A stretch of 64,000 nucleotides of DNA from Eledone cirrhosa (lineage: Eukaryota), in assembly GCA_964016885.1 (NCBI GenBank), contig OZ024751.1, positions 16,492,001 to 16,556,000 on the forward strand, in the 5' to 3' direction. The position numbers and the translations under genes are program-made. Below the pieces are notes generated by a model that was not told where the DNA came from, made no database searches, and was given only the letters and a program-made list of their open reading frames with translations. Shown here one piece after another: positions 840-62,650 of this stretch (position 1 is the first letter of the stretch; every line of letters starts with the position of its first letter).

Positions 840-2003
840 TATATATATGAATGTAATCTGAGTTTGTCGAATATTAATAATAATATTCGATTCGTTTACA
901 ATTATGCAAATAAGCCTAATTTTTAAAGTCATGTCAGTAGCATGAGCCCTTCATTCTTGCTCTTGTGTTGGCATCTAAACAGAACTGCAGACACTAATGT
1001 TTCTGGGTATCACCCTTCATCAGTACAGTTCTCTGTTGAACTGCCAAACTGTCAGAGCTAGTGAAAATATATGCTATTTTCAAAAATACACAGTGACTGA
1101 TCGGCCTGATTTGCATATTAGCAGACTGGCTGGCCAGTCAGATCGGCATATTGGCAGATCCACTGCTCAGCCAGATTTGCATATCAGTAGACTGGCGAGT
1201 CAGTTTCTTGTATACGAGCAATCAATGGACGGCTTTGCCATATTCAAATATAGAAGAAAAAGATTTTTGCTCTACATGGCTGAATACAATAAATGTTATC
1301 GGAGTTTTTCGAATATTAAGAACAATATTCGATTCGTTTGCAATTTTGCAAACAAGCCTTATTTTTAAAGCCATGTCAGTAGAACGTACCCCTCAATCTT
1401 GCTCTTGTGTTGGCATGTGAACAGAACTTATATATATATATATATATATATATACGGGGTAACAAATTATTGTTATAGGTAGTCCACTTAAGTGTAGTCC
1501 AGTTATGGTACTCCGGGTAATGGATGATATCAACGCTTGGCTAAGTTTGACTCAACAAGGCGTTTCCATAGTGATGTTGCGGGTACGCTGTAATTCCTAT
1601 GTTGTAAACACTTGGAGTAATAATAAGTCAGGAAAGAAGAGGGACACGGTTTGCAATACAAAAAAGGTTTTTAATCTCATTGCTAACAATTGTTTCTCTG
1701 AATTGATAGGTCAAGAGATCGCTACCCGCTTGTTTTCACGTTATTCGATCACCAATACAAAGTTATAACCAGTCAATCCATCTGAGCTTGATTCTCACAA
1801 GCACCGATGAATTGACTGGTTATAACTTTGTATTGGTGAGCGAATAACGTGAAAATAAGCGGGTAGCAATCTCTAGACCTACCAGTTCAGAGAAACAATT
1901 GTCAGCAATGAGATGAAAAACCTTTTTTGTATAGCAAACAGTGTCACTCTTCTTTCGTGATTATATATATTTTTATATATATATATATATACTCTTGTGC
2001 GAT

Positions 2004-2424: not shown

Positions 2425-2572
2425 ATATATATATGTATATATATATGTAGGAGGTGAGTTTTATTGTAGTACAATAAAGCAATGCAGATATCGGATAAGA
2501 AGCACTCTACAGTTTGTGGGACTGGAGTATGCATAATATAAGATCAAAAGATGGTTAAAGGAGTTCCATATA

Positions 2573-2639
2573 TTTTATTATGCGCATTTCAAAAACAAAC
2601 ATCATCAAACAATAATATTTGCGTTTTCATCAGATAAAA
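2573..2639 (-). ncRNA. Minimal hammerhead, inverted copy
   Basis: Reverse complement of 2765-2831 with 1 difference. Confidence 0.8.
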
Positions 2640-2764
2640 CAGGAGAACATGATATGAAGGCTAAAAAACACTTGTTGATAGTGCAGTTTTAAATCAACAT
2701 ATCATGTTGATTTAAAACTGCACTATCAACAAGTGTTTTTTAGCCTTCATATCATGTTCTCCTG

Positions 2765-2831
2765 TTTTATCTGATGAAAACTCAAATATTATTGTTTGAT
2801 GATGTTTGTTTTTGAAATGCGCATAATAAAA
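2765..2831 (+). ncRNA. Minimal type I hammerhead ribozyme
   Basis: TTTTAT-CTGATGA-[stem II CAAATATTATT/GATGATGTTTG]-GAAA-TGCGCA-TA-ATAAAA. Confidence 0.8.
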
Positions 2832-2867
2832 TATATGGAACTCCTTTAACCATCTTTTGATCTTATA

Positions 2868-3966
<1,099 letters not shown>

Positions 3967-4142
3967 TGTTCCCATCCCTTTCTGTTTTCGTTTATCTGAC
4001 CGGTAGTAGCATACTATAAACTTTAGCCACGTCACTCCAGGGCGACCGGCTGAGGTTGAAGGAACAGAATAGCGGTCGCCCTCGGGTCCTCGATTTTCAG
4101 CCCCATGGATTTTATCTATTACATTCACGTATTATATTTCGA

Positions 4143-4200
4143 AAACCTGATGATATCACCGGATTCATACGGAACCCGGTCATTGAAATGATCATAGTAT
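4143..4200 (+). ncRNA. Minimal hammerhead with weak stem I
   Basis: CTGATGA-[ACCGG/CCGGT]-GAAA-TGATCA-TA. Confidence 0.55.
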
Positions 4201-4417
4201 AATAAACCTTTCAAGGATTTACACAAATCTAGCCTCCTGTCATTTCATTATAATATTTAACTCCGTAACAGCACCACCAACTACAAAAAAAAGACGGTTG
4301 AACTGCTTTACGTTGAGTACTCTCTATATTATTGCATTACGATTGACCATACGGAATAGACCAGCTCTATACAGTGGTGAACCTCAAACCTGAATATATA
4401 TATATATATATATATAT

Positions 4418-5324
4418 AAAGAAAAAGGGATGAAATCGAAAATGCAACTGAAGTCTTATTTTTTTGTTTTTTTAAATATATATATTTATTTGGTTCCTTT
4501 ACCGGGTTCGCAGTTCTTCTGCTTTTCAAAAGGTGAGTTGAGATGGAGGGTCTGTGGTTTTTCTCACATCTGGTTGGTCTCTAAATGTTACTTGTTTTAT
4601 ATGGAAAAAGTGGCTCGAAAACCAGGTTTTTCGAGAAGTAATTTGATTGGTTTGTCAATAATTATAATAAATTTCGCGCCAGCTCGCGTTACAATAGTTC
4701 TTCAAATAAGAGAGGGGGGGGGGGTTGTCACAGGTTGTTTTTTCATATATGAGTGTTTGAATTTCTTTTTACTTGAAAAAATGAGGCTCACGAAGGCTTT
4801 TTTTTGGTTGGTTATAAATGAAATTTGGCTGTCACGTGAACAAGTTTTCATTACATTTTTGCGCCCTTATTTGGAAAACTATTTTGTAGTCTTTATAGTG
4901 AATGTTATGACAATGGAGAGATAGTGGTCAAAGGAAAAGGGATTGGGAGAAATGTTCTGGTTCAGTGAATATGGCCAGCTGTCAGAGTTCAGGTGTCAGA
5001 GTTCAGATTTTCTATTGAGACTGAAGATATGTGTTTATTTGTGTGCTTGTGTGTGTGTATATGTGTGTGTGTGTGTATTGGAAGATGATTCTATTGGTAG
5101 AGATGGGGGAGGGAGTTGTGTGTGTGTGTATATGGGTGTTATGTGTGTGTGTGCGAGTATGTTAGATAGAGAGAATATATATTTTGTGTGTGTGTATATA
5201 TATATGTGTGTAGGAAAGTGGTTCTATTAGTAGAAATGGGGAGGGTGTTGTAGGTGTGGGGGTTGTTATGTGTGTGTATGGGTATTATGTGTGTGGGAGT
5301 ATGGTTAGCATGTTAAGATGAAGA

Positions 5325-5361
<37 letters not shown>

Positions 5362-5905
5362 GTGTGTGTGTATGTGTGTGTGTAGGAAAATGATTCCTTT
5401 AGTAGGAATATTTTTGAATGAACATATCTTCCTGACTTTTTCGTGTTTGCTGTTGTATTGCCAGTGCAAACGTATGTTTAAGGTTTATTTAGTTCGGGTT
5501 TTTATTTTCTAAAGTAGGTGTTATGTGTGTGTGTGTATGTCATATTGTGGTGTTGACATAATGTATATTAAACCTTATTTAATGTTGGTCCATATTTTTG
5601 AATAAACATATTTTCCTTATTTATTCGCATTTGTTCTGTTGTATTGTTAGCGCAAAGGTAAAATGGGAAGACTTGGAATTTGGGTGTCTTATTACTTGCG
5701 CAAATGTCTAGATATGCACTTAGTGGTATCTGTCTCGTGGTTGGATCTCGTAATTGTTGGCGATGAACTGTCATTCTGTTTCTGAGTGTGAGTTTAGTTG
5801 TGTCCTATATAATCTTCATTGCATCCTTTACATTTAATGGCATAAATTAGATTTTTTGATGAGCAAGTGAAGTGATTTTTTACAGTAAAATTTTGTCCTG
5901 ATTTA
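4418..5905 (-). mobile_element. 3' end of a Penelope-like element (Neptune-type GIY-YIG endonuclease, 3' UTR, hammerhead-bearing terminal repeat)
   Basis: Minus strand 5568-5880: HFTCSSKNLIYAIKCKGCNEDYIG-(frameshift)-LRNRMTVHRQQLRDP...KENMFIQKYGPTLN; terminus 4418-4570 matches 60535-60830. Confidence 0.85.
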
Positions 5906-5914
5906 AATGTATAC

Positions 5915-5967
<53 letters not shown>

Positions 5968-6190: not shown

Positions 6191-6570
6191 TATATATATA
6201 TTGTACAATGAAGATTCATTTTACTTTAACCCTTGATATATTAGGAGAAGAATCTTAACGTTTCAGACGCTAGTACTTCATCAGACGATATAATGAGAAA
6301 TAAAAGAATAGAAAGATAGACGATTCTGGGAAGTGTTTAAATTCTGTCTCGTACTGGGAGGCTCACAGGCCTGTGACTACATCTCGTATATATATATATG
6401 ACTATATATATATATATGTATATATATAAAATATATATATATATATCGCACAAGAGTACTCGATACTTTGGGTAGTAGAGTGGGTAATAGGAAAAGAGTC
6501 AGGACCCCAACGGCAGAGCTCAAGCCGTTTCAACGGCTATTTCTGGATTCTGCCGTCGGTGTCCTCACTC

Positions 6571-6643
<73 letters not shown>

Positions 6644-7140
6644 AGTATTGAATTTTCCGTTGAAAATTGAAAAAGCCATAGGAGTGAAGAGTGGTCTATG
6701 TAAGTACCAGAGCTAAATTTTATGTATAATAAACAATACAATATAATTACCTCATTACCAGAGGTTTCCCGAATAAGATTGTATTCGTCTTATTCGGGAA
6801 ACCTCTGGTAATGAGGTAATTATATTGTATTGTTTATTATATATATATATATATATATATATAATCATATCAAACCTCAGTCCACCATTTGCCTCCGTCA
6901 CGGAACCATAGTTCAACTAAGCACTCTTGCTATATTAACACATTTTGAACTGCTTAACTTCAATGACTTTCCTTGTAAATAACATTATTTTTTCTCCCAC
7001 ATTGACTTTTTCTGTTCTACATTATGCACGTTTTTTTTCCTTTTTCTTTTTTTCTTTTCACTTCATAAACCTTGTTAACATTATTCTTGCTGTACCTTCT
7101 GTTTAACATGTGCGACACCACACTAGTACATTTCACTATC

Positions 7141-11497: not shown

Positions 11498-12457
11498 ATA
11501 TTTCTAAATAATAGTGGGCTATGAGAAGAGTAAAACATGGTGGATGAAAAGTTTAGGGGCCTATGTTACTAAAGGCTTCCATTGGTTGGCTCGGATCATG
11601 TGCTGGTGTTGATAAGTCATCGACTCTACCAAGATGTTTGTATCGCTCTGGCACGATTATTCTCAGTTAAATTCCGGTGACATCGGATATATGATTTCAT
11701 TGACTTCCTATTGGCATCAACTAGTCTGGAGCGCCTTCTACTCTGTATACCGAGGTCCCTGGGGGGGGGGGGGGGGTCGAAAATTTGTATGACATTTATA
11801 GTGTCCTTTTGTACGTGAGATGTTTAAGCTGGTTTCAGCTGTCAGTACATCATGCTAGTATTATATATATGTATATAAATATATATGAATATGTATAATA
11901 TATATATATATATATGTATATATATATGAATATACATATATCTGAATATGTATAATATATATATATATATATGTATATATATATGAATATACATATATCT
12001 GAATATGTATATATATATGTATATATATATATATATCTGAATATGTATATACATATATATGTATATATACGTGAATATGTATATATATATATATATCTGA
12101 ATATGTATATACATATATATGTATATATACGTGAATATGTATATATATCTGAATATATACATACATATATATGTATATATATACATGAATATATATATAT
12201 ATATATATCTGAATATGTACATACATATATATGTATATATACATGAATATATATATATATATATAGTTTTAATATAGATGAGATTCTACAGGACTAGAAC
12301 TGTTTCATTCATTTGAAATCATCAGGAATCCTGATGATTTCAAATGAATGAAACAGTTCTAGTCCTGTAGAATCTCATCTATATTAAAACTGTTATACTC
12401 TGCTATGTATTGAGTACCTTACTTACTGTGGTTACCTCCGATTCAACCCGGAATAAC

Positions 12458-12666
<209 letters not shown>

Positions 12667-13099: not shown

Positions 13100-13221
13100 A
13101 TATATGTATATATATATATATATATGAAGTAATTCCGTCGGAAAAGTCCAGGAAAAAAGAGTGCTTTATGTAGGTAACAGGGCTTAATAGTTATGTAATA
13201 AACAACATAAAGCCATTATTC

Positions 13222-13275
13222 CATTTACCAGTGGTTTCTTAAAAGCAAATAATTTTGCTTTCAATCATCAGAATG
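13222..13275 (-). ncRNA. Minimal hammerhead
   Basis: CATT-CTGATGA-[TTGAAAGCAAA/TTTGCTTTTAA]-GAAA-CCACTGG-TA-AATG. Confidence 0.8.
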
Positions 13276-13353
13276 AAAAAATCCTGGTCTATTTATTGAT
13301 ATTGGATTCAATATCAATAAATAGACCAGGATTCAATATCAATAAATAGACCA

Positions 13354-14006: not shown

Positions 14007-14697
14007 ACAGACGGGCACACACACATATATATATATATATACATATTTATATATATATATATATGCATATTCATATATATGCATATATATACATATTCAT
14101 ATATATATATTGTTATACTTGGGGAGGGTCATATTGTTGTAATAATATTGCCAGAATTAATAACAGAACACACTCATTGGTTGGTTGGTTTTCGCTTCTG
14201 TATCTTTTATATCAGTTAATTTATTCGGTCCTCAATGTTTACCATTGACTGACCAACGGTCAAAAATACAGATATAATATAGATATACACACATATATAT
14301 AGCCTAACAAAGTTCTTTCGTTGCACATCTGCAACATCGTCAGTGGTGCTATTATGTTGTATTGTATATTTACGACACCTTTATTTAATCTGTTTATGTA
14401 TTTATTTTTTTATTTTTGTCTTCTCCGCGCATGCGTTTGCGCGTGTTTCGTGTTTGGTGTGTGTTCGCGTTTGGGTGACTGTGTTTTGGTTATTGTATTA
14501 TAGCATGTTTACTAGTGTGTGCTTATATGTGTTTGTTGTTATTGTGCTTGTGTATATATTTATTTATTTATATTTCTCTTAAGTCAGTATTGTTTGTTTG
14601 GAAGTTGTTATTCCATCATTTTTTCTGTTTAGCTTTGGCCTTTTAAGTTCTATTTCACTCGCCTCTCTGATTTGCCGATCTGCTGGGTCATTATATA

Positions 14698-42939: not shown

Positions 42940-43147
42940 AATTTATAAACAACCATCTGGTTGTGGAACCAACCAAACAAACGGAAATTTATAAATTCCT
43001 AAATTTATAAATTTATTATAATAAATTGAAGTGAAAGCAACTGGTGCGTGTGTTTCTTATTGGCAACATGACCCACCCAAAGTATAACAATATCGGTTTC
43101 AACACACGTTTTCAGATAAAGAATCTTGCTAAACAAATTCAGAAACG

Positions 43148-43199
<52 letters not shown>

Positions 43200-43457
43200 T
43201 AATATGAAAAGAGTCAGGACCCCGACAGCTGAGCTCCGGCTGTTTCGACAGCTAGACCCGTCGGGGTCCTGACTATTTTTATATTACCCACTCTACTACC
43301 CTAAGTATCAAGTACTTTAGTTAGCTTTGGTCCACCTGGTATCTTACCACTCTTTCTTTGTTATATATACTATAATAAAGGTTTGGTAGAAATATCCAAT
43401 GATAAGAGCACTGTCCACAGGAGGAGTTAAGTATAAATAATTACAACAGTGACATAA

Positions 43458-43507
43458 ACAAGTAGTTAAGTTTCATTGGGTTCTGGAGCCCAACTCATTC
43501 AGCCCGT
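43458..43507 (-). ncRNA. Hammerhead-like motif with CTGAATGA core
   Basis: ACGGG-CTGAATGA-[GTTGGG/CCCAAT]-GAAA-CTTAAC-TA-CTTGT; the opposite arm has palindromic CTTAAG. Confidence 0.6.
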
Positions 43508-43580
43508 CGCAAGAAAAAAAAAGAATTGGGGTCCAGAACCCCACGAAACTTAAGTACCTGTTTATGACACGGTTGTAATT

Positions 43581-43623
<43 letters not shown>

Positions 43624-46063: not shown

Positions 46064-48706
<2,643 letters not shown>

Positions 48707-49821: not shown

Positions 49822-52800
49822 GTATATATATATATATAGAGAGAGAGAGAGGGAGAAGTTCAGTAAAGCATACTATGTTTCAATGAAACGATTTGTATTG
49901 TTACTCATTCTTGTTAGAGAATTTGTATTTCTTTTTTACACATATGATATTTCAATATATAATATATTCTATCACTACAGCTACAATCTTCATCACTTAA
50001 CCTCAACCATATTTCTATATAATTGAGTGGAGCTTCTAACTTTACCAGTGTTTCTCCGATCATTACTATTTGGGGTATAGTTTGAGTTAGTCAGTTCACC
50101 TAAATGAATATTAATATTGCTACTTTAATTGTAATTTTCCACCACTTAACATCAAACATTTAACTGTAGCTCAAAGACGTCTCATTAGCTAACTTCCAAG
50201 ACAAATTTAACTAAATGAAGATATACGTTTTCTAAGTCTCAGCTTGCGTATGGTTTGTTTAACGAGAAGAAAGATTTCAATAGACATGTCAGCAGAAGAA
50301 TTTCTTTGCAATTCGTTAGCAATGCCTTGACACGAAGGTGATTTATAAATGACACGGATTTGACAGATATATTCCTAGAGAGAAATGGAGTCAAACAGAG
50401 TTGTGTTATTTTTCTGGGGATATGCTGCATCAAATACATTTTAAGAACTCACACACATCTTCAATTCAGAAGTACCATGACGCTATTCATATTATGTATA
50501 GAACAGGGAGAAAACAGTTCAACATGAGTGTTCTGATCTAAGTGCATCAACGCTCTGTTAATAGTTAGTGTAAAAATAAAGTTGAGATCACGTAATAATC
50601 TTTCGTTAAATGAAATACAAGAATTTTTGCATTACTGACAAATAATGCAAATTCCATTTTATTGCGAATAATGGAAAATTGTAGAAGTAGAAAATTTCGT
50701 TTTGCGGCAATTACTTTTCTTGTTAAAGATAATTAGATCAATAAAATGAGCTCTGTATTTGAGCTGCAAAAGTTGTTATGGTGGTAATCAACTGGTGCTC
50801 TTGTCATGGTTTAGCTGCAGGGTACCATTGAGCAAGTAGAACTTGGATCAAAGATTGTTCAACTATGACTATCTCGTCTTTGTTTTTTATGTGTTTCGAA
50901 TCCAGACCTTGTTATCCATCATGTTATGTTTTAGTGGTTTGATATAAGGAAGTTTGACAGCATAGTGTTACCGTCGTCGACTTACGGTCGTTAATAATTT
51001 GTAAGAAAAGCTTAGTATCAAAGGAGTGCTTAGTCGTTACTGTGTTTAGCTCAAGACAAATATCTATAAATTTTAGTTCGAGTGTTCGATTCATGAACCG
51101 ATCGATGAATTTTAATAGTGAGCAACATATTTTTATTTCACGTGACTCAAGTCTACTCAGCTGGGGAAATTGAGTTGGCACGACATGATACCAAGCTGTA
51201 TAGGGTTTTTTTGTTTTTCCCTTGAACAACTTTGTTGGCGTGGAGAGAGAAGGCAGGTAGGCGTAAGCGAATGCTGGTCGTCCTCAAAATTACCTTGGCC
51301 AGGTTTGCGCCAAGGAGAATAAAATTCCAAGCGCAAATCGATGGTCAATTACAATTGAAGCTGGCCGTAAGCAATGTTTGTGTTTAAGCTATAGCAATTG
51401 TTTTGGTGACGAAGTAGCAGAGTTTTTAGAACATTAGATTGAATGCTTTGCAGTATCCATTCTATCTATCGGCATTCACAGTCAAGGACAACTTTGCCTT
51501 TCATCATTTCTAGATCGACAAAAGTACTGCAGGTTCAGTACTAAGTACTTTCTCTTTCTCGCTTCCCTTTTATTTTTTTCTCACTCACATTCCCTATCTT
51601 TATCTAGAAGAAATCGGTTACGATCAGATCTGATGAGGGAGGGACTCCGCCAGGTTTTAAAGGCTCAGGGCATACCGTAAGTCTCCGTGATACACATACG
51701 ACTCCATTGAGATTTACGGATTCACGGATGAAATGATGGATTGTTATGTTAACCAATAATTAAGTGAATATGCTGGGTTCTGTATCTGAGAGATTATAAA
51801 ATGTGTATGTATACAAAACGATTGGTCTTATGAAAACTTTGATGTACCAGTGATACATGTATGTATAACGAGTATAATATGAACTAAATAACCTTCTAAA
51901 TAAATTGCTACATTGATAAACAAATGCAAATTGATATCCAAATGCAAATTATCTTGAAACAACTTCTGAAGGCTGAAGACTACGTAATATATGTGAGTAG
52001 CGAGTTAGGCTAACGATCTTAAGTTCATGTGTTCCATTTCGCGTGGGCTCTTGTGCCTTTAGGAAAACACTTTATTTCAGGTCACTGCAGTCCACTCAGC
52101 TGGAAAAATAGAACTGAGTTGTATCTGAAATTTGAAGGGTCGTCAATGTCTCATTTGCGTTACACTGAATCTTGCTGATGACTAAGTTACGGTTACACGT
52201 GTTTGTGAAATGCACAACCAATTACACGTTAATTCCTCGGACGGACTGTTCCAGTTGTCTGAACAACTAGAACATTCGCCATCGGAACCGATCGAGGTTT
52301 CACACATAATAAATGGGTTGACACTTCCTACTAAGTGGGTAGCAGTCAGAAATGCCAATCAAAGACTTATTTAAAACATTTCCCCTACGTTATAAATGTG
52401 TTGAGAACCAAAGATCCAATCTTCGAATGTAATAATGCTTTCTGAATTAGATATAAGGCCAACATATATTTGTGGGAAGGGACAGTCAAGTAAATCGACA
52501 TCAGTGTGCTATTTTTACTTTATGTTATCGATCCCTTAAAATGAAAGGCAAAGCTAATCTCGGCATGGTTTGAACTCCGGACGTAAAGAGGCATAACTCA
52601 ATACCACAAAGCATGTTGTCCGACCCTCTACCAGTACTGCTAATTCACCGTCCTCTTCAAATGTATTAATGATTTCTAATCTAGGCTTAAGTCCAGAGCA
52701 TTTGATGGACTGAGAAAGCTGATTATACCGAATACAGTGTTGAAGTTCTTGATACTTTAATTTATCGACGTCAGAAGAAGGAAAGACAACGTTAATCTCA

Positions 52801-52859
52801 GTGGGACTTTAACGCAGAATGTAGATGACTCCCCTTACTTCATATTGCAAAGCAGTTTA

Positions 52860-55800
52860 GCCGACGTTCTAACGTGTCTGACAACCCATCGCCGTCTTCT
52901 TCAAATGCAATAATGATTTAATACCGACCGATATAGGTGATAGGAAAATCGTAGGCGTAATTTCTAATTTAGACACAAACCCAAGAATTTGGAGGGGAGG
53001 AGTCAGCCAGAATACTTCCGCGTTGAATGTTGCAGATTGGAGTTTCAATCTTCGCAAAGTTCAGCGGGAGTTTGAAACTGGAATGAGCGATGCGACCTCC
53101 GTAGAGAAGAGTCGCTGCAATTCCAGAGGAAGCAACGGCCAGTGCGATCCAACTGTTCTTTCTCACCGTTGTTCTTTCTCACCGTTTCTCAAGTGGTTGA
53201 TGACGAATGTCTTTCCCGTGCCTCCTGGAGCATCAACGAAGAAGAGGCCACCCTTGCTGGTTGTCACATCATCAACAATGGTGTTGTAAGCCAGTTGCTG
53301 ATCATGGATCAATTTGGGTTCGTTGGTATTAATAAACTCATGAAGAGCACTGATCTTGTAGCTCGTCTCGCGGAGAAGCTCTGTAGACGTTGACCTCTGG
53401 ACACTCCTGTCAGGAGCAGGTAAGCTGTAGTGACTTAGAGGCCTACCACCAATCCCCAGGACACTATTTTCAAGACAAATCAGCGCCTCATTGAAAACGA
53501 CATCGTATGTTACGTTCGGATATTGTCTGCGTGTGCGGTGGAGGATGTCCTCAGCTAGACTTCCGCAGTGGTTGTTCCACAGTGCGAGAGGGTCGGCGAG
53601 ATCGCAGTTGTGCAGCAAAAGAGCAAAAAGTGTTCGCAGCTGAGAAGGGACTTTAGCAGTTGCTGCTTCTTGCAGGGTGAGGTGCCAATGGCTGTCATCG
53701 TGTAACATACCACGCATCTGGCAAGCCAAACGGTAAGTGGAACATTGATGGCCATTGATGGTTCTCAGATCTTGGAAAGACTGTGGTCCTCTAATCTCGA
53801 ACAGGAGCATTCTTAGGAAGAAACACTCGAACTGAGTCGGATGGACGCTGTAGACCCTTCCAAGAACATCTGCTGACTTGATCTGAGGGTGTCCTTCCAC
53901 TGCTTTGCCAGCCTATCTACGCTACCACAATCGGGTTGGTCTGTTCCGTGTGTAGAAGCGGGGAAGTTGCCAATAGAAGAGTGTTTGTGCGAATTCGTCT
54001 TCTTGGCAGAGCTTGAAAAAGCCCGTAGGTGTTGTATTCTTCGGTGGTTCTTGAACAATTTGAGCAGCCTGTTCTGGATGGAAGAAAACTCTCTGGCCAT
54101 TTTCGAGATGCACTGCCAGGTGCTCGACTGCAGGATGGCGTTCATGAAGTGGGAATCCGAGAATTCCCCACATGGACCATGAACCATTTGAGTTCTGATA
54201 ACGTCGAACAGCCTCTGGGTTTCTGCAGGATCAGTGAGTTCAGCATTTATCAATGAGTCAATCTGGGAAGGACGGATTTTCTCGATTAGCCAGATTAGAA
54301 TGTGGGCATGGGGAAGTCCACGTTTCTGCCACTCAATGGTGCACATATCACATCGTGTTGGTCCAAAGATTTCTTACTTCGTTAGGATTGACATGAGCTT
54401 CATAACTTTCAGACGGAATACTCTTGCAATAAGGTCATGACGGTGAGCGGACGTTTGGCCAGGAAGGAGTTCACCAGTTATTTCATACACTTTGGGTTGC
54501 ATGTGAAGGTGATGAAAAGGTCGGGACAGCCATAGTGCCTCACGTATGTCATTGCATCTTGAGTCTTCTCATGCACATATCGAGGACTTCCTGCGAAGGT
54601 GGAAGGGAGGATGACCAACTTACCAAGCTCGTGGCCATGTCTGGCATCATTGTTCACAGCATCACGAAGGTGAGCCTAGTTGTCAGCTCGAAGTTCCTTC
54701 TGATGCCTTGCAGTATAAGCAAGGCGTTCACTCTCTATCTTGGCATACATGTCAACGACAAACTGGTGAAATAGATCGCGTGCTCGGTGAAGATGATCGA
54801 AGTTGTTTGAACGAAGCATCAGGTGAAAGGCATAACAATCCATCACAGATACTTTCTTGTTTGTTGGCTCACCATTAGATCCAGCTTTGACAAAGCAGCC
54901 AGTGGTATCCATGCTCCCCTCTTGTGTACAGAAGTGGGTACTGAAGGCCATCGTATGCTTTGTTGGTGTCGGGAGTTTTTTTTAGACCTTCATCACGATG
55001 TCGGATGACTATATCACGCTTTGCCCCGATGTGACCAGCAAGGACAGCTGCAGCCTCTGCAACAGCTGGAGCATTGAAGCGTCTACGATGCTCACAAGTT
55101 GGAACCTTGTCAGGGTGTATAACAATGTCGAACATTTTGGCTGGAGGGTTTTCAATGGCGAATTTAAAGTTTTGAATCAGCCTGTTTGAGACACTTAACA
55201 TGTCCTGTAACTGGCGAATGTTTTCAAGTCTGGTTCCTGAGATGGCTCGATGGCGACGTATCGCTTGTGAATCTGCATCTCCAATGAAGTAGATTTACAA
55301 AAACTTGTAGTCTTCTCCCGACAGGGGTAGGAGACTTCCAATCGTGTGGTACATTTGGCCCTGTACTTTAAATCTGGACATGTATCCGCCATGATTAACT
55401 TCCTTTTCGGCTCCGAAACTCGTCATTTGAAAGCAGCTATTGTAACTCCTTATGTTTGCAAGGAAGTGACGGCTATCACCGCTCTGGCCTGAGAAGAGAC
55501 TTTTGAGCTGTTCCAAAGGGCAAGTGAGTAGGGGCAAACTGATTTTGCCTCCACTGCACCACATGCCTGGCACCTACCTGTGCCACTTGAGAGCTTGACA
55601 ATGTGGGAAAATAGTGTTCATGGATCCAAGTTCAGAAGCGATAGAATAGTCGACGGTCGAGTCATATCGAAAGGCTGAACCGGCGGTTTTAGGGCATCTC
55701 TGACTTGTTGACCAGCAGTGTAGGCTTCTCTGATAGGTCCAACTGTCAACCGAAGTTGTTTCTCTCTCACCTGTAGAATAATTTAAAAAACATTATTTGC

Positions 55801-57515
55801 TCATTACAGTTCCTTTCAAAACTCAATCCTACCGCTAGTCGTAAAATATTCGACCATCTCCAAATGTCCTACTCCAGTGTATGTATTATAATGAAGCGGA
55901 TTTTTGGGGCCTATATCAATGTTCCCATCGATTATGATACTATTTTCTTAATAAGCAGCCAAATTATACTTCTGAAGTTCGACAGTTTTACTGAATATCT
56001 GTAGAAAAAACTCAAAATATTTGACAAATGAAACTGTTGAAACATGGAAAATCTATTTACTTTTAAAGGAGTTACCTTTGGAAAAGTCCATTTTGGAAAT
56101 ATAATATTTCGTTGTGCCGAAAGATTGGGACTCAAGATGCACTGTTAAATTATCAATGCTCGGCTCAACAAAAATCTAATGTGGAGGCGCATGTAGAAGC
56201 TTTCTATTGATAGCTGAACTGAACTGTTGATAGCGCTGTTTGATGCGACAAATTTATATACCAGAACAATTAACGTACAGGTTAACATTGTTGACCTGAT
56301 ATAAAATCTTTGACAACATTTTGATTACTGTAGGCAAACAAATATTGATGACTGCCCTGTAATGAATTTGCTCAGAATTTTTGTGCTTATGCCCTCTTAA
56401 ATATTGGACTCAGTTTGGCAAGGACCTATATGGCACACTGCTGCTGTAATGCAATGTGGATGCAAACAGCTTGTGAAATCACCTGCTCTAATCTGGCTTC
56501 TTCTGTCTGAGTTGCTCTCCTGCCTTTGCACGGGACCTCAGTTGCTGAAGGCGAGACTGGCGCTGCTCTTGAGACTGGGCTGATCGAATTGCTCTCGCTT
56601 GAGTCTTCATCTGCTGAAGGCGACGTTCATGATCATCTTCAGACTCTCTTGCTCTAGTAACATTTTTTCTTCTGGAAAATCTAATCTTGCGACCAGGCTG
56701 GGACCTTTTGTGTGGCATTGCGGCTCTGTCTGTGCTTTCGTGAAATAAATATGTTTTTGTGTATGTAAAAATATCTGTGCGCGGGGACATAGAAATTGTC
56801 GGGCTGGACACCCGATCGCGCTGTTAAACCACTAGGAGTGAAGGACCCCTAGCCTTTGTCAGGGCATTCTTCTAGGAGAAGCCAACTCAGGAAACTGGGA
56901 TAACTCTGATATAAAAGCTGCGGCTCAGTAGTTCCCGATGATGTTGATCTTTTCTTCTTTTCGGATTAGTGGGATTGGCTCAGTGCACAGTCTTTCCTCA
57001 CTTTAAAAAATATCTTCGGCCAGGCTGGGACCTTTTGGGTGGCATATCAGCTCCGTCTGTGCGTTTGTGTATGCAAAAGTATCTGTATGTAAGTTTAAGC
57101 AAATGCAAAAATATATGTATTTAAGTTTAAGCAAAGAATCGCTGCTTTCAACTTTAACGGAATTTTCTGAAACTAAAAAAAAATCAATCTGTGAACGCAG
57201 AAGTAAATTTTTCGAAAAAAGTTTTCTAATGCAGACAGGCAGACATACTGAGACATATAGCTATGTATCATCTAAAAAGACACTAAAAAAAGGTGAGGAA
57301 TGACGTATAACCGGAAGTGTTGACATTTGAAATTTTAAAGAAGTAAATATTTAAATGATGTCTTTAATCTTTTCACAAAATTCAGTAGACAAAAATACCC
57401 TCACTTTCTTACTTGGAAAAAGTTACATCTATGGTGCAAATTTGGTGCTGTTTGGTCCAGCCGCTTGGCAGAAAGTTTGTTACTTACATACGGTCGTCAG
57501 CATTGTAGTATATAT
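52860..57515 (-). mobile_element. Decayed autonomous Helitron (Rep-helicase), 3'-truncated
   Basis: N-terminal MPHKRS...EQRQSRL; CSGGKI; NIRSYNSCFQMTSFG; HRRRFNAP; QFVVDMYAKIESERL; YGCPDLFITF; HUH motif EWQKRGLPHAH; Pif1 Walker A DAPGGTGKTF; VASSGIAATLL.GGR.AHS; many frameshifts; 5' boundary approximate. Confidence 0.92.
55771..56482 (-). other. Putative intron in the Helitron Rep-helicase gene
   Basis: CAG|GTGATT donor and TTATTCTACAG acceptor bound an AT-rich gap between coding-like segments. Confidence 0.6.
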
Positions 57516-57869: not shown

Positions 57870-58418
57870 CTACGTACGTGTGAGATAATGTCGATGTGCA
57901 TTGATATGCGAGCATGTATTTATTTATATGCTTGTGTTGTTACGTACGTGTTTATACGCACGCACTCAAACGCACACACAAATGCATACACACATGCATG
58001 CAAACACACATATACATTTATATAAAAGCCAGCAATTACCCAGTGCATTACTGGTACTTTATTTTATCGACCCCGTAAGGATGAAAGGCAAAGTTAATCC
58101 CGCCGAGGTTAACTTTGCCTTTCATTCTTACGGGGTCGATAAAATAAAGTACCAGTAATGCTCTGGGTAAATTTCTGGCCTTGAGCCTAAAGTAGAACCA
58201 ATTATGTATTATATATATATATACAGAGATTATATATATTTATATATATTATGTATTATATATATGTATATATTATGTATTTTATATATGTATAGATTAT
58301 ATATTATGTAGTATATATATATATATATTATGTATTATATATTTGTATATATTATGTATTATATATATATGTATATATTATGTATTATATATATATGTAT
58401 ATATTATATGTTATATAT

Positions 58419-58620: not shown

Positions 58621-58662
<42 letters not shown>

Positions 58663-58926
58663 CATAATATATAACATATGTGAGAGAATATGCTCCGAAA
58701 TGATTAGACGTGTCCATCGAACCTGCGGGTCCAGAGTCAGACCTATCCACACAATGATTGCGCCTGCGCCTCGAACCGTCCGCCGGCGAAACAATTGTAA
58801 CACACATTAAATTGAGTTCAGATGTATGAATGATTTTTCGTTTTCTATTATATCATACTCTGCTGTGTCAGAGCATAGAGTGCTCAACCGACATACCGCC
58901 TATGGAAGCATCTTGGCTACCATCAG

Positions 58927-58960
<34 letters not shown>

Positions 58961-59082
58961 GTAGGAGGTGAGTTTTATTGTAGTACAATAAAGCAATGCA
59001 GATATCGGATAAGAAGCACTCTACAGTTTGTAGGACTGGAGTATCCACAAGTGTTTTTTAGCCTTCATATCATGTCCTCCTG

Positions 59083-59149
59083 TTTTATCTGATGAAAACA
59101 CAAATATTATTGCATGATGATGTTTGTTTTTGAAATGCGCATAATAAAA
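59083..59149 (+). ncRNA. Minimal hammerhead, same family as 2765
   Basis: Core and stems I and III identical; changes confined to stem II and its loop. Confidence 0.8.
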
Positions 59150-59179
59150 TACATGGAACTCCTTTAACCATCTTCTGTT

Positions 59180-59230
<51 letters not shown>

Positions 59231-59833
59231 TGTATATATTGAGTTAGGAACTCAAAATAGTCTCTTACAACAAAATAGCTCTAAGAAAGAGATATTTCTG
59301 AGCCGTATATTATAATAGAATATAAAAGAGAAGCGAACACAGATATATAGATATATGTGTTCAAATCGTAAGGGACCCGATTCGCTAAGGTGAAAAGAAT
59401 ACTAACTATAGACAATTGGGTTCGCTTGTCTCAATTTAAGAAGAAATTAAGAAAATAAATACAAACCGGAATTGTGGTAACTACCAATTACCCAGACAGC
59501 TTGTTATTGTTTCGCAAAGTTAATTGTGAATAGAAATACTAATCCAAGTTCATCAGTCGGTGATGAATTAGTATCCTAGACACAGCTATGTATGCTATAT
59601 ATAAAAAATAAAACAGCGCACGTGGCATCCTAGCGAGTCTCACAAACCCACACCACTAGAAATAGCAGCCAGGCTTACTCGACATTTGAAATAGCTCAAC
59701 AAATTAACGGACCCGAATATATTTTATGTATATATTGAGTTAGGAACTCAAAATGGTCTTTCACCTTAGCGAATCTGGTCCCTTACTATTTGAACATATA
59801 TATCTATATATCTGTATTCCCTTTTCATTTATA

Positions 59834-59866
<33 letters not shown>

Positions 59867-59950
59867 CAAGGGAATGTAAACACAGAAAATATCTTAAAAA
59901 ATGATAATAAATAATTAAAATGTATTAATTACATATAGGACACATACTTT

Positions 59951-59988
<38 letters not shown>

Positions 59989-60354
59989 AATGTATGTGTC
60001 CTTATGTAATTAATACATATGTAATTAATACATATATAAATATATATATATATTAGATATCTCTCCAAATAGCCAGGGGCTTCGTAGCTCTCTCCGGATG
60101 TACAGATTCATTATATATGTATATATATATATATATAATGAATCTGTACATCCGTACAGAGCTATAAAGCCCCTGGCTATTTGGAGAGATATCTAATATC
60201 ACTTATATTTACGATACAATAATAAATGGGAGATAGAAGGGAATAAGAAAAATAAATGAAGCAAAAGAAACAAAAATTGTGAAAAACAGTCAGAACTAAA
60301 AAACAGAGCTACACACACAGACACACACATATATATGTATACGTACACATATAC

Positions 60355-60476
<122 letters not shown>

Positions 60477-60720
60477 GTGAGGTTTTTTTTACAAAATGAA
60501 AAATAACCGAGGTGTCCTACACGAGTGAAAGTATAAAGAAAAAGAGATGAAATCGAAAATGCAACTGAAGTCTTATTTTTTTTTTAAATATATATATTTA
60601 TTTGGTTCCTTTACCGGTTTCGCAGTTCTTCTGCTTTTCAAAAGGTGAGTTGAGATGGAGGGTCTGTGGTTTTTCTCACATCTGATGTGAGAAAAACCAC
60701 AGACCCTCCATCTCAACTCA

Positions 60721-60758
60721 CCTTTTGAAAAGCAGAAGAACTGCGAAACCGGTAAAGG
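60721..60758 (+). ncRNA. Minimal hammerhead, U3-A8 core variant
   Basis: CCTT-TTGAAAA-[GCAG/CTGC]-GAAA-CCGG-TA-AAGG; inverted copy 60608-60645; copy 4496-4533(-). Confidence 0.7.
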
Positions 60759-60830
60759 AACCAAATAAATATATATATTTAAAAAAAAAATAAGACTTCA
60801 GTTGCATTTTCGATTTCATCTCTTTTTCTT

Positions 60831-60893
<63 letters not shown>

Positions 60894-61444
60894 TTTCTGA
60901 ATTTGTTTAGCAAGATTCCTTATCTGAAAACGTGTGTTGAAACTGATATTGTTATACTTTGGGAGGGTGATGTTGCCAATAAGAAACATACACACACCAG
61001 TCGCTTTCACTTCAATTTATTATAAATTTCCGGCTGGTTGGTTGGTTGGTTCTATAACCGGATGGTTGTTCATATATTGTCAAAGTTCTTTCGTCACTCA
61101 TTCTGTGACCTCTTCAGTGACTGGGGATTCTTTTCTTAATTTTTTATTTTGTGCCTCTCCTTTGTTTTGTCCTACGCCATCTTGTTTGGCGTAGGACAGA
61201 ACAAAGGAGAGGCCCAAACAAAGAAAAGAATCCCCAATCACTGAAGAGGTCACAATGTGTGACGAAAAAACTTTGACAATATATGAACAACCATCACGTT
61301 ATAGAACCAACCAACAGAAAATGTATAATAAATTGAAGTGAAAACGACTGGTGCGTGTGTTTCTTATTGGCAACATGACCCTCCCAAAGTATAACTATAT
61401 ATATATATATATATATATATACAGTATATATATACTTATATGTA

Positions 61445-61786: not shown

Positions 61787-61825
61787 GCTTATGGTCCACC
61801 TGGTTCCTTACCACATTTCCTTCGT

Positions 61826-61897
<72 letters not shown>

Positions 61898-61921
61898 TAT
61901 ATACATACACACACATATATA

Positions 61922-62021
61922 CAGGGTGTCCACCCAAAAATGTATACACAAATGTTGTCCATTCTTATAAATATTGGCTGTACATGTAATGAAAGTGTAT
62001 ATACATTTTTGGGGACACCCT
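61922..62021. mobile_element. About 100-bp Tc1/mariner-type MITE
   Basis: TIRs CAGGGTGTCC..AAAAATGTATA / TATACATTTTTGGGGACACCCT in TA context. Confidence 0.75.
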
Positions 62022-62300
62022 ATATATATATATATCGATAGGGTATTGTAAAATACCAGGTGGACCATAACCCACCAGAGTACTCGATCCTTGTGGTAGT
62101 AGAGTGGGTAATATGAAAAGAATCTAGCTCCTGAAACGGCCAGAGCTCAGCCGTCGGGGTTCTAATTCTTTATATAGATTAAAGTTTAAGCAAAGAATCG
62201 CTGCTTTCACCCTTAATTTGGTCTACGGTTCTTATACATCTGATATATATTCATCCTTATCGAGCCCTCTTTGGATTTTAGTCTGCAAATTTATTATTAT

Positions 62301-62346
<46 letters not shown>

Positions 62347-62650
62347 TTTCTGAATTTGTTTAGCAAGATTCTTTATCTGATAACGTGTGTTGAAACCGAT
62401 ATTGTTATACTTTGGGAGGGTCATATTGCCAATAAGAGGTCACAGAATGTGTGACGAAAGAACTTTGACAATATATAAACAATCATCTGGTTGTGGAACC
62501 AACCAACCAACCGGAAATTTATAAATTCCTAAATTTATAAATTTATTATAATAAATTGAAGTGAACGCAACTGGTTCGTGTGTTTTTTATTGGCAACATG
62601 ACCCTCCCAAAGTATAACAATATATATATATATATAAATTTCTATATACA

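What the first reader, a model, noticed from the sequence alone, without database searches (positions are those of the whole stretch)
2447..2868. Shared insertion architecture: tailed arm plus inverted tail-less arm, both ends in (TA)n
Seen in about 20 islands (2447-2868, 6655-6840, 12266-12460, 18200-18600, 20445-20865, 24550-24995, 25030-26068, 33617-33805, 42720-43148, 43370-43581, 58961-59183, 60472-60832, 60892-61395, 62344-62620 and others). One arm runs to a fixed family-specific end with a 50-130-nt unique tail. The opposite, inverted arm starts at a fixed internal TA-rich site just before that tail. Only the central junction varies. Established: PLEs often have inverted 5' pseudo-LTRs and 3' tails, and some prefer microsatellites. 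Inference: both strands of a cut (TA)n target prime reverse transcription at two defined RNA positions and the two cDNAs are joined, a programmed form of twin priming.
Basis: partly seen in the sequence, partly recalled or inferred. Interest (0 to 1): 0.82.

Follow-up and report, generated by a model that had tools for sequence, protein, structure and literature searches.

The report
Penelope insertions primed from both ends
These lopsided mirror-image pieces in TA repeats are truncated copies of Penelope-like jumping genes in an already described layout, but their two ends fall at fixed points, in one clade just before two copies of a small conserved hairpin motif, which likely means that both cut DNA ends start copying one RNA at two marked sites.

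Summary
All 14 listed islands, and about 13 more, have a tailed arm plus an inverted tail-less arm. Both ends lie in (TA)n in 25 of 29 islands, against 1 of 15 SINE-type controls. The islands are pseudo-LTR stumps of Penelope-like elements (PLEs): hammerheads lie on the tail-3' strand, and Hydra- and Neptune-type protein remnants are in the window. The layout is published (PMC3846280, PMC8557442), as are two RT start sites bounding the tail in vitro (PMC11167929). Reads from three other samples pile up at both family ends and repeat some fold-back joints. Not found in my searches: a bulged hairpin motif just 3' of both start sites. In marine Hydra-type relatives 18 of 27 end rows lie within -4 to +6 nt of one of its two copies. 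Either arm can be the longer, and single tail-less arms occur, which favours two-ended priming over fold-back. Corrections: tails are 39-168 nt, some junctions are fixed, 10 of 27 arm pairs are nearly equal, and two insertions end off-site. The mechanism is inferred; no assay was run. The scan has noted this before in this genome and others.

The parts
2447..2535 (-). Family A, island A1: unique tail (3' end of the RNA sense strand at 2447, 'site 2')
   Evidence: same end in A2 at 58961
2504..2528 (-). Bulged hairpin motif RCTC-stem-loop-stem-NN-GAGY at the start of the A1 tail
2536..2700 (-). A1 tailed arm body (pLTR); reads from other samples break into (TA)n at 2533/2536 ('site 1')
2571..2641 (-). 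Type I hammerhead in the A1 tailed arm (8-bp stem I, palindromic helix III region)
2701..2703 (.). 3-nt centre between the head-to-head arms
2704..2868 (+). A1 inverted tail-less arm, 99.4% identical to the other arm over 165 nt, ending at site 1 in (TA)n; hammerhead at 2763-2833
58961..59183 (.). A2: tail-only arm (58961-59045, minus) joined at site 1 to a 138-nt tail-less arm (plus); the arms do not overlap
24552..24995 (+). E1: inverted tail-less arm, tailed arm, hammerheads in both arms, hairpin 24912-24934
42720..43148 (+). B1: short tail-less arm, long tailed arm with hammerhead at 42897
60892..61397 (-). B2: near-equal arms (7-nt centre from the tailed arm)
62345..62620 (-). B3: tailed arm runs 38 nt past site 1, tail-less arm 190 nt, 4-nt overlap at the junction
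36236..36268 (+). B6: 25-nt tail-less arm joined to the last 16 nt of the tail
12266..12460 (+). C1: palindrome turning just 5' of the hammerhead core; hairpin 12397-12415
33617..33805 (+). C2: same turning point as C1; tail end in (CA)n
35221..35350 (+). C4: 12-nt tail-less arm, short duplication, tail
18952..19141 (-). D1, one of nine copies of short family D (others 6447-6578, 20940-21102, 23340-23476, 28890-29009, 32646-32757, 43198-43361, 61789-61825, 62036-62172); hairpin at the tail start
6644..6838 (-). F1 (family also at 13126-13300 and 17184-17309)
18200..18601 (-). G1: near-perfect palindrome with 39-nt tail
60471..60832 (-). G2: arms 100% identical over 149 nt, 1-nt centre, hammerhead variant with U3-A8
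4419..5915 (-). G3: single 1.5-kb tail-less arm ending at G site 1, with a frameshifted GIY-YIG endonuclease C-terminus of Neptune type at 5570-5915
20435..20869 (-). H1: 167-nt tail, hammerheads in both arms, hairpin 20593-20554
25032..26068 (-). I1: long tailed arm, 176-nt tail-less arm
43370..43582 (-). J1
1455..1968 (-). K1: 168-nt tail, hairpin 1618-1550, 7-nt centre
59227..59838 (-). L1: 80-nt tail-less arm plus more than one ~496-nt unit; hairpin 1 at 59303-59278 after site 1, hairpin 2 at 59713-59677 after the internal copy of the tail end (site 2, 59728)
34853..35061 (-). N1: near-perfect palindrome with 97-nt tail
26302..27000 (.). Hydra-type ORF inversion: RT N-terminal piece with DKT (minus, 26302-26780) joined to the CxCX5C linker (plus); the RT arm ends in (TA)n at a site inside the ORF

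Best explanation
The islands are 5'-truncated insertions of endonuclease-bearing Penelope-like elements and their short non-coding derivatives, likely built when both 3' ends of a cut (TA)n repeat prime reverse transcription on one RNA at two fixed UA-rich sites and the two cDNAs are then joined head to head. Shown: the layout, fixed family ends, hammerheads on the tail-3' strand, (TA)n flanks, and a conserved bulged-hairpin motif (RCTC...NN-GAGY) after site 1 in seven window families and after both end positions in Hydra-type relatives and family L. From the literature, for another clade: both strands are cut and extended, and RT starts at two sites that bound the tail. Inferred: each hairpin is a binding site that places an RT (perhaps one subunit of a dimer) so that copying starts a few bases 5' of it, helped by 1-5 nt of pairing between the self-complementary TA primer and the UA-rich site. 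Also inferred: arm lengths record where each RT stopped. The site-2 copy halts at or soon after site 1 (tail-only arm), or both run to a shared RNA 5' end by strand displacement (near-equal arms), or the site-1 copy stops early (long tailed arm). Host end joining with 0-4 nt overlap and second-strand synthesis would finish the insertion.
For: Either arm can be longer: tail-less by more than 10 nt in 8 of 27, tailed in 9 of 27, near-equal in 10 of 27 (lengths entered by hand). In A2, B6, D4 and F3 the tailed piece stops at or inside the tail, so the tail-less arm had no cDNA to copy. Reads show the same type of joint (2477/2700, 2515/2606, 59329/59748). A 1.5-kb tail-less arm without partner exists (G3). 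In 78 metagenome Hydra-type loci the hairpin's 3' half occurs two or more times in the leader in 33 of 53 loci, against 2 of 53 in ORF windows and 8 of 53 antisense. 18 of 27 end rows lie -4 to +6 nt from a hairpin start, 7 at copy 1 and 11 at copy 2. The inner stem pairs in 125 of 153 cells, against a shuffle mean of 82 and maximum of 102. In family L the tail end piles up at 59728, just before a second hairpin that is an exact motif in the family's contigs (C>G at 59712 in 37 contigs). Near-equal arms exceed permutation (10 observed, mean 3.1, 4 of 20000 reach 10). C1, C2 and metagenome locus L001 turn just 5' of the hammerhead core, as expected for a shared RNA 5' end. In vitro precedent: PMC11167929.
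Against: No biochemical test. Palindromes can lose their centres after insertion, so asymmetric islands may come from symmetric fold-backs (own knowledge). Near-perfect palindromes fit self-priming too (proposed in PMC3846280). PMC11167929 reports no difference in start site between strands, which does not predict one tailed plus one tail-less arm. The tails do not fold better than shuffles (z from -2.5 to +1.4, only one of 15 below -2; the hairpin is often not in the minimum-energy fold), so the structure rests on covariation among related sequences. Families B, G, I, J, N and P share the layout without an exact motif, and F has only 1-mismatch versions. Two insertions end off-site (17323-18189 right arm; 26302). 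9 of 27 end rows are not at a hairpin (mostly cross-family references), and the loci are not independent.
Confidence: 0.62

Rival explanations
1. Fold-back: one cDNA is primed at site 2, folds on itself, copies itself back, stalls before the hairpin at site 1 and is joined to the other TA end by microhomology; later central deletions make the asymmetric forms.
For: 10 of 27 islands have centres of 10 nt or less, more than chance. In B2 and G2 the centre belongs to the tailed arm. It explains by construction why no island has two tails. Self-priming was proposed from palindromic junctions in PMC3846280.
Against: 8 of 27 islands have the longer tail-less arm and 4 have no overlap between arms. 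G3 is a tail-less arm alone. In C1 the tail-less arm is 2 nt longer. Centres of 1 nt (C1, G2) are too short for a hairpin loop. The same motif follows site 2, which must be an RT start. Element 3' ends in relatives occur at both sites.
Confidence: 0.17
2. Mixed: both sites are true RT starts, but the two arms come from two RNA molecules or two RNPs acting independently (dual priming), with fold-back making part of the perfect palindromes.
For: Minimal hammerheads act as dimers (PMC4209133) and the PAc protein is predicted to be a dimer (PMC11167929). Single arms from either site exist.
Against: Independent RNAs would not stop at nearly the same base in 10 of 27 islands and should sometimes give two tails or none; I saw neither among the PLE-type inverted islands. 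B2 arms share subfamily changes absent from B1 and B3 (read by eye).
Confidence: 0.13
3. The endonuclease makes staggered cuts in a double-stranded or hairpin DNA intermediate at site 1 and site 2, and the cut product is integrated; the tail is a resolution scar.
For: Stated as the likely origin of the tail in PMC8557442. The D. virilis endonuclease needs the tail sequence for recognition (as summarised in PMC11167929). Both sites are AT-rich.
Against: PMC11167929 maps the tail ends to RT start sites on RNA. Depth decays 5'-ward from site 1 as in truncated reverse transcripts. The motif covaries as a single-strand hairpin.
Confidence: 0.07
4. Assembly or amplification artefact, or MITE-type DNA transposons.
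For: Short-read data cannot span whole islands. One TA-flanked inverted-repeat element at about 61920-62025 looks like a Tc1/mariner-type MITE (label recalled).
Against: Arms differ by up to 15%. Ends are family-specific. The same fold-back joints recur in raw reads of three samples (59384/59391: 43, 46, 42 reads; 59329/59748: 103, 133, 118). Hammerheads and PLE protein remnants are present.
Confidence: 0.01

Closest known systems
Insertion units of endonuclease-bearing PLEs with an inverted 5'-truncated pLTR and a one-sided tail (Arkhipova et al. 2013, PMC3846280; Craig et al. 2021, PMC8557442 Fig. 2)
   Same: Head-to-head inverted copy, tail on only one of the inverted pLTRs, palindromic junctions, 5' truncation, hammerhead in the pLTR, no visible target duplication in microsatellites.
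   Different: Tails here are 39-168 nt against the published 30-40. Most islands are pLTR stumps without ORF. The papers explain the shape by self-priming or endonuclease resolution, not by two-ended priming.
Hydra clade of C-terminal EN+ PLEs (PMC8557442), including Hydra-1_Obim, Hydra-2_Amil, Hydra-1/2_Ajap, Hydra-1_Crog
   Same: (TA)n targets, canonical hammerheads, DKT and CxCX5C motifs (window 26302-27000). The hairpin motif is visible by eye in 4 of the 6 new Hydra consensus sequences in the supplement (one a variant), twice before the start codon in Hydra-1_Ajap.
   Different: The passages and supplement parts I read do not mention the hairpin. The motif-bearing window islands are not physically linked to a Hydra ORF, so their assignment rests on the shared motif.
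Poseidon element of Anolis carolinensis (PAc), in vitro (Frangieh et al. 2024, PMC11167929)
   Same: Two internal RT start sites that bound the tail; both target strands cut and extended; AT-rich targets; predicted dimer.
   Different: Different clade. No strand difference in start site. No product with two joined cDNAs shown. Start sites were described as lacking homology to the target, whereas here both sites are UA-rich and overlap the TA target by 1-5 nt.
LINE-1 twin priming and dual priming (described in PMC2837659)
   Same: Second target strand primes internally on the RNA, giving an inverted piece joined head to head with little microhomology.
   Different: In L1 the internal site is a chance annealing site and the result is an inversion with deletion. 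Here the site is fixed per family and the arms usually overlap, giving palindromes.
Neptune clade PLEs
   Same: Family G links to a C-terminal GIY-YIG piece 74% identical to a 772-aa protein with DKG and a CX4CXXC linker; same layout.
   Different: Its tail has only half of the Hydra-type motif, so the signal, if any, differs.
Animal non-LTR retrozymes (bioRxiv 10.64898/2026.07.22.740005)
   Same: Non-coding hammerhead units derived from PLE pLTRs; family L has a ~496-nt unit present in more than one copy.
   Different: Retrozymes are defined as tandem arrays with a hammerhead in each unit; the islands are mostly inverted sub-unit stumps.

Membership tests
EN+ Penelope-like elements | PLE-type RT with GIY-YIG endonuclease in one ORF | tested here: met
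   Family G only: its arm continues into an endonuclease C-terminus matching an RT-EN protein. A Hydra-type RT and linker lie at 26302-27000 but are not joined to a tailed island. Other families have no ORF in the window.
EN+ Penelope-like elements | Type I hammerhead in the pLTR, on the sense strand | tested here: met
   Descriptor hits on the tail-3' strand in 22 of 36 arms (14 without mismatch, 8 families) against 2 antisense, both with a mismatch. Rfam showed no hammerhead among the 150 rows listed of 521.
EN+ Penelope-like elements | Inverted 5'-truncated copy with a tail at one end | tested here: met
   27 islands
EN+ Penelope-like elements | Partial tandem forming direct pLTRs | tested here: met
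   L1 (59230-59263 repeated at 59726-59759) and 17393-17621/17877-18102; direct pLTR repeats in many metagenome loci
EN+ Penelope-like elements | Target site duplication or empty allele | not testable with these tools
   Flanks are (TA)n, no genome is held, and reads do not span islands.
Hydra clade | DKT motif and CxCX5C linker | tested here: met
   Met for the fragment at 26302-27000 (definitions). Not testable for the non-coding islands.
Hydra clade | Motif-bearing islands (A, C, D, E, H, K, L) are mobilised by a Hydra protein | tested here: inconclusive
   They share the hairpin motif and its offset from element ends with Hydra-type loci, but no island is joined to a Hydra ORF.
Hydra clade | Placement in an RT phylogeny | not tested
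   No tree was built; the window RT piece stops before motif A.
Neptune clade | C-terminal GIY-YIG with CCHH and a CX2-5CxxC linker | tested here: inconclusive
   Seen by eye in the homologue P0163; the window piece starts after the linker; Nematis not excluded.
L1-type twin priming | Second primer anneals at a variable internal site; inversion with deletion | tested here: not met
   The internal site is fixed per family and arms overlap in most islands. It works like twin priming but is not the L1 form. The two off-site cases fit the L1 form.
MITE / DNA transposon | Symmetric terminal inverted repeats at both ends of a constant-length element | tested here: not met
   One-sided tails, variable lengths and 5'-ward decay of depth

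The most novel reading that the evidence does not exclude
A PLE protein dimer docks on two tandem hairpins of one RNA and uses each as an anchor, telomerase-fashion, to start copying a few bases upstream from each end of a cut (TA)n repeat. Programmed two-ended priming is then the normal integration route of PLEs, the tail is simply the spacer between two anchors, and short non-coding RNAs hitch-hike by keeping the hairpins.
Probability: 0.4. Interest if true: 0.75.

Novelty: new variant of a known kind. Interest (0 to 1): 0.5.

Why it matters
How PLEs form inverted pseudo-LTRs and one-sided tails is named as an open problem in PMC8557442 and PMC11167929. A short RNA motif a few bases from both end positions gives a direct handle: move or break one hairpin and one start site should move or vanish. 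If it holds, it links the tail, the inversion and (TA)n targeting in one mechanism for the retroelements closest to telomerase. It would also explain a large class of repeats (about 14% of this window) that annotation tools could take for MITEs or microRNA hairpins. The layout itself is not new.

Tried and rejected
No genome is held for this window, so genome-wide copy alignment and empty-allele tests were not possible. Rfam gave only sub-threshold microRNA-type hairpin hits in the rows shown. Pfam found nothing in the Hydra pieces, the 39-aa endonuclease piece or P0026, and only one weak unrelated hit in P0001. The word-index protein search missed the RT piece; the HMMER search found 1007 relatives. 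A 19-sequence alignment was too loose for a locus search; a 6-sequence one worked. No RNA holder was listed. Folding energy gave no support for the tail hairpin. Hammerhead cleavage as the source of arm ends is rejected: cut sites lie about 20-80 nt 5' of site 1 and arms run through them. The 'goes back 496' joint comes from my choice of a permuted unit and is not evidence of a circle. The 3' tail end of family A could not be read because the stretch ended there. Paper searches for PLE twin priming or a start-site hairpin listed nothing that states either. The library lacks most subscription papers, and Evgen'ev and Arkhipova 2005 and Arkhipova 2006 were not read. The PAc sequence file (.gbk) could not be read and its supplementary figures came through only as text fragments, so I could not test whether PAc has paired signals. 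The killifish Neptune and octopus repeat papers had no passage on this layout. No structure or complex prediction was run.

Full report
Setting. The window is AT-rich animal DNA with 157 merged (TA)n runs and 106 islands between them. No genome is held for it. An earlier scan note calls the genome an octopus; I did not test this.

Observation. Window-wide self-comparison finds the inverted arms without assuming TA flanks. All 14 listed intervals have the layout. I measured 27 two-armed islands in 13 sequence groups and read two more by eye. Where self-alignment found both arms, tails are 39-168 nt and arm identity is 85-100%. Both ends have at least four TA units within 20 nt in 25 of 29 islands, against 1 of 15 SINE-type copies; the islands were partly chosen by their TA flanks. 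Mapping copies on one reference arm per family shows fixed ends. B tail-less arms stop at the same base in 5 of 6 copies and B tails within 1 nt in 4 of 4. A, G and C tails or inner ends agree within a few bases, and D tails reach the same base in 6 of 9 alignments. The inner site overlaps the TA target by 1-5 nt (read).

Independent reads. Raw RAD reads from three samples of another study, and contigs of one further sample, were laid on two stretches. For family A the (TA)n loose ends at 2533 and 2536 make up 492 of 2035 and 510 of 1823 partly laid reads. For family L the tail end at 59728 takes 526 of 2345, 645 of 2428 and 773 of 2351, and depth drops from 400-600 to 14-19 beyond it. Opposite-strand joints lie at varied places, and two of them recur in all three samples, so they are inherited rather than library chimeras. 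These are amplified short reads and RAD stacks; amplification-free long reads were not available.

Identity. A hammerhead descriptor hits the strand on which the tail is 3' in 22 of 36 arms, 14 without mismatch in 8 families, against 2 imperfect antisense hits. This fixes the RNA sense and places the arms head to head. The G-family arm at 4419-5915 runs into a frameshifted GIY-YIG C-terminus that is 74% identical to a 772-aa RT-endonuclease protein with DKG and a CX4CXXC linker, which points to Neptune type. At 26302-27000 an RT piece with DKT is inverted against a CxCX5C linker, the Hydra-clade marks given in PMC8557442 (passages). The islands are therefore PLE pseudo-LTR stumps, many probably from non-coding derivatives.

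What is in print. PMC3846280 (passages) describes an inverted pLTR with a 31-bp tail on one of the inverted copies and reads the palindromic junctions as self-priming. PMC8557442 (passages; supplement parts 1, 2, 52, 53 of 59) draws the same layout, lists (TA)n targets for Hydra and Naiad, and ascribes the tail to endonuclease resolution. PMC11167929 (parts 1-2 of 4) shows in vitro that a Poseidon protein cuts and extends both strands and starts at two internal sites that bound the tail, with no strand difference. Twin and dual priming of L1 are defined in PMC2837659 (passages). I also saw passages of PMC4209133, PMC8969392, PMC2377424, PMC13282606, PMC12602865 and bioRxiv 10.1101/2024.12.14.628481, and parts 1-2 of 5 of the retrozyme preprint. 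Searches listed no paper that proposes twin priming for PLEs or a hairpin at the start sites; the library is partial.

The hairpin. Comparing tails of families A, C, D and E suggested a motif RCTC-stem-loop-stem-NN-GAGY. A window scan gave 25 exact hits against a mean of 8.1 (maximum 18) in 30 shuffles, including tails of H, K and L that had not been used to define it, each a few bases 3' of the inner end. Earlier scan notes then gave me two leads, the Hydra link and a second copy after the tail end, and I tested both. The motif is visible by eye in Hydra-2_Amil, Hydra-2_Ajap, Hydra-1_Crog (variant) and twice before the start codon of Hydra-1_Ajap. In 78 Hydra-type metagenome loci, exact hits number 39 in 17,746 nt of leader, against 3 antisense and 13 in 163,058 nt of ORF. 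The 3' half occurs two or more times in 33 of 53 leaders, clustered near -107 and -45. Of 27 rows where a copy of the leader stops matching, 18 lie -4 to +6 nt from a hairpin start, 7 at the first and 11 at the second; two of the 11 are one insertion. The other 9 are mostly cross-family mismatches. Inner positions pair in 125 of 153 cells, against 82 in shuffles (relatedness not controlled). In the window, island L1 holds more than one unit and shows the second hairpin right after the internal tail end; contigs show the exact motif there. Against: tails fold no better than shuffles, and families B, G, I, J, N and P have the layout without the exact motif.

Mechanism. A single cDNA that folds back must leave the tailed arm at least as long as the other. 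Here the tail-less arm is longer by more than 10 nt in 8 of 27 islands and the tailed arm in 9, while 10 are near-equal (hand-entered lengths). In four islands the tailed piece stops at or inside the tail, and G3 is a 1.5-kb tail-less arm alone. With the same motif at the same offset after both sites, the simplest reading is two RT starts, one for each cut end. Near-equal arms are more frequent than permutation gives (4 of 20000; 35 of 20000 for the ten longest), which argues against two unrelated truncations. It fits one RNA copied twice up to a shared 5' end; C1, C2 and locus L001 turn just before the hammerhead core. The same class also fits self-priming, and later deletions could create the asymmetric class, so fold-back keeps 0.17. 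I saw no double-tailed or double tail-less PLE palindrome among the inverted islands. That is expected if one RNA offers each site once, and it is not explained by the PAc assay.

Verdict. Real, PLE-derived, layout known. The programmed two-ended priming is likely (0.62) but inferred. The paired hairpin is the part I could not find in print and is what makes the model testable. The scan has reported the same reading from other pieces of this genome and from other genomes; those notes are leads, not support. New variant of a known kind; interest 0.5.

Noticed in passing
window 3963-4393 and 58660-58946: Two further TA-bounded islands carry the exact tail hairpin (4260-4318 and 58857-58881, plus strand) with no inverted arm found; probably single tailed arms of two more families.
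   Followed up: partly
window 17323-18189 and 59863-59953: Family P: a hammerhead-bearing unit of about 480 nt in partial tandem. One arm ends inside hammerhead stem II rather than at a family site. Its tail has a different hairpin and is the only one that folds better than shuffles (z -2.5).
   Followed up: partly
window 26302-27000: Hydra-type ORF inversion whose RT arm ends in (TA)n inside the ORF, an ordinary L1-like twin-priming shape.
   Followed up: partly
window 60595-60660 and 60705-60770; 4480-4545: Family G hammerhead has U3-A8 in place of C3-G8 in the core.
   Followed up: no
window 61176-61195: The B2 palindrome turns just before a CAAGATGGCG stretch that resembles a YY1 site (recalled), a possible transcription start.
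   Followed up: no
window 60054-60211: A palindrome with (TA)n in its centre instead of only at its ends; family and orientation unresolved.
   Followed up: no
window 58025-58182: Fold-back palindrome made from a SINE-type repeat, not flanked by (TA)n on its left side.
   Followed up: no
window 61920-62025: Short element with terminal inverted repeats in TA that looks like a Tc1/mariner-type MITE (label recalled).
   Followed up: no
window 14671-16131: 486-aa non-LTR reverse transcriptase remnant (Pfam RVT_1) followed by a (GAT)n tail.
   Followed up: no
window 52000-56800: Broken PIF1-like helicase reading frames, probably a Helitron remnant.
   Followed up: no
window 2864-3962, 21103-23339, 46069-48705: Very long TA-based arrays (1.1-2.6 kb); the first two abut PLE islands. 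Whether insertions seed or merely hit long arrays was not tested.
   Followed up: no
L001 704-960: Metagenome Hydra-type element with an inverted tailed arm starting in (TA)n before hairpin 2, joined to a full-length copy that begins just 5' of the hammerhead core.
   Followed up: partly
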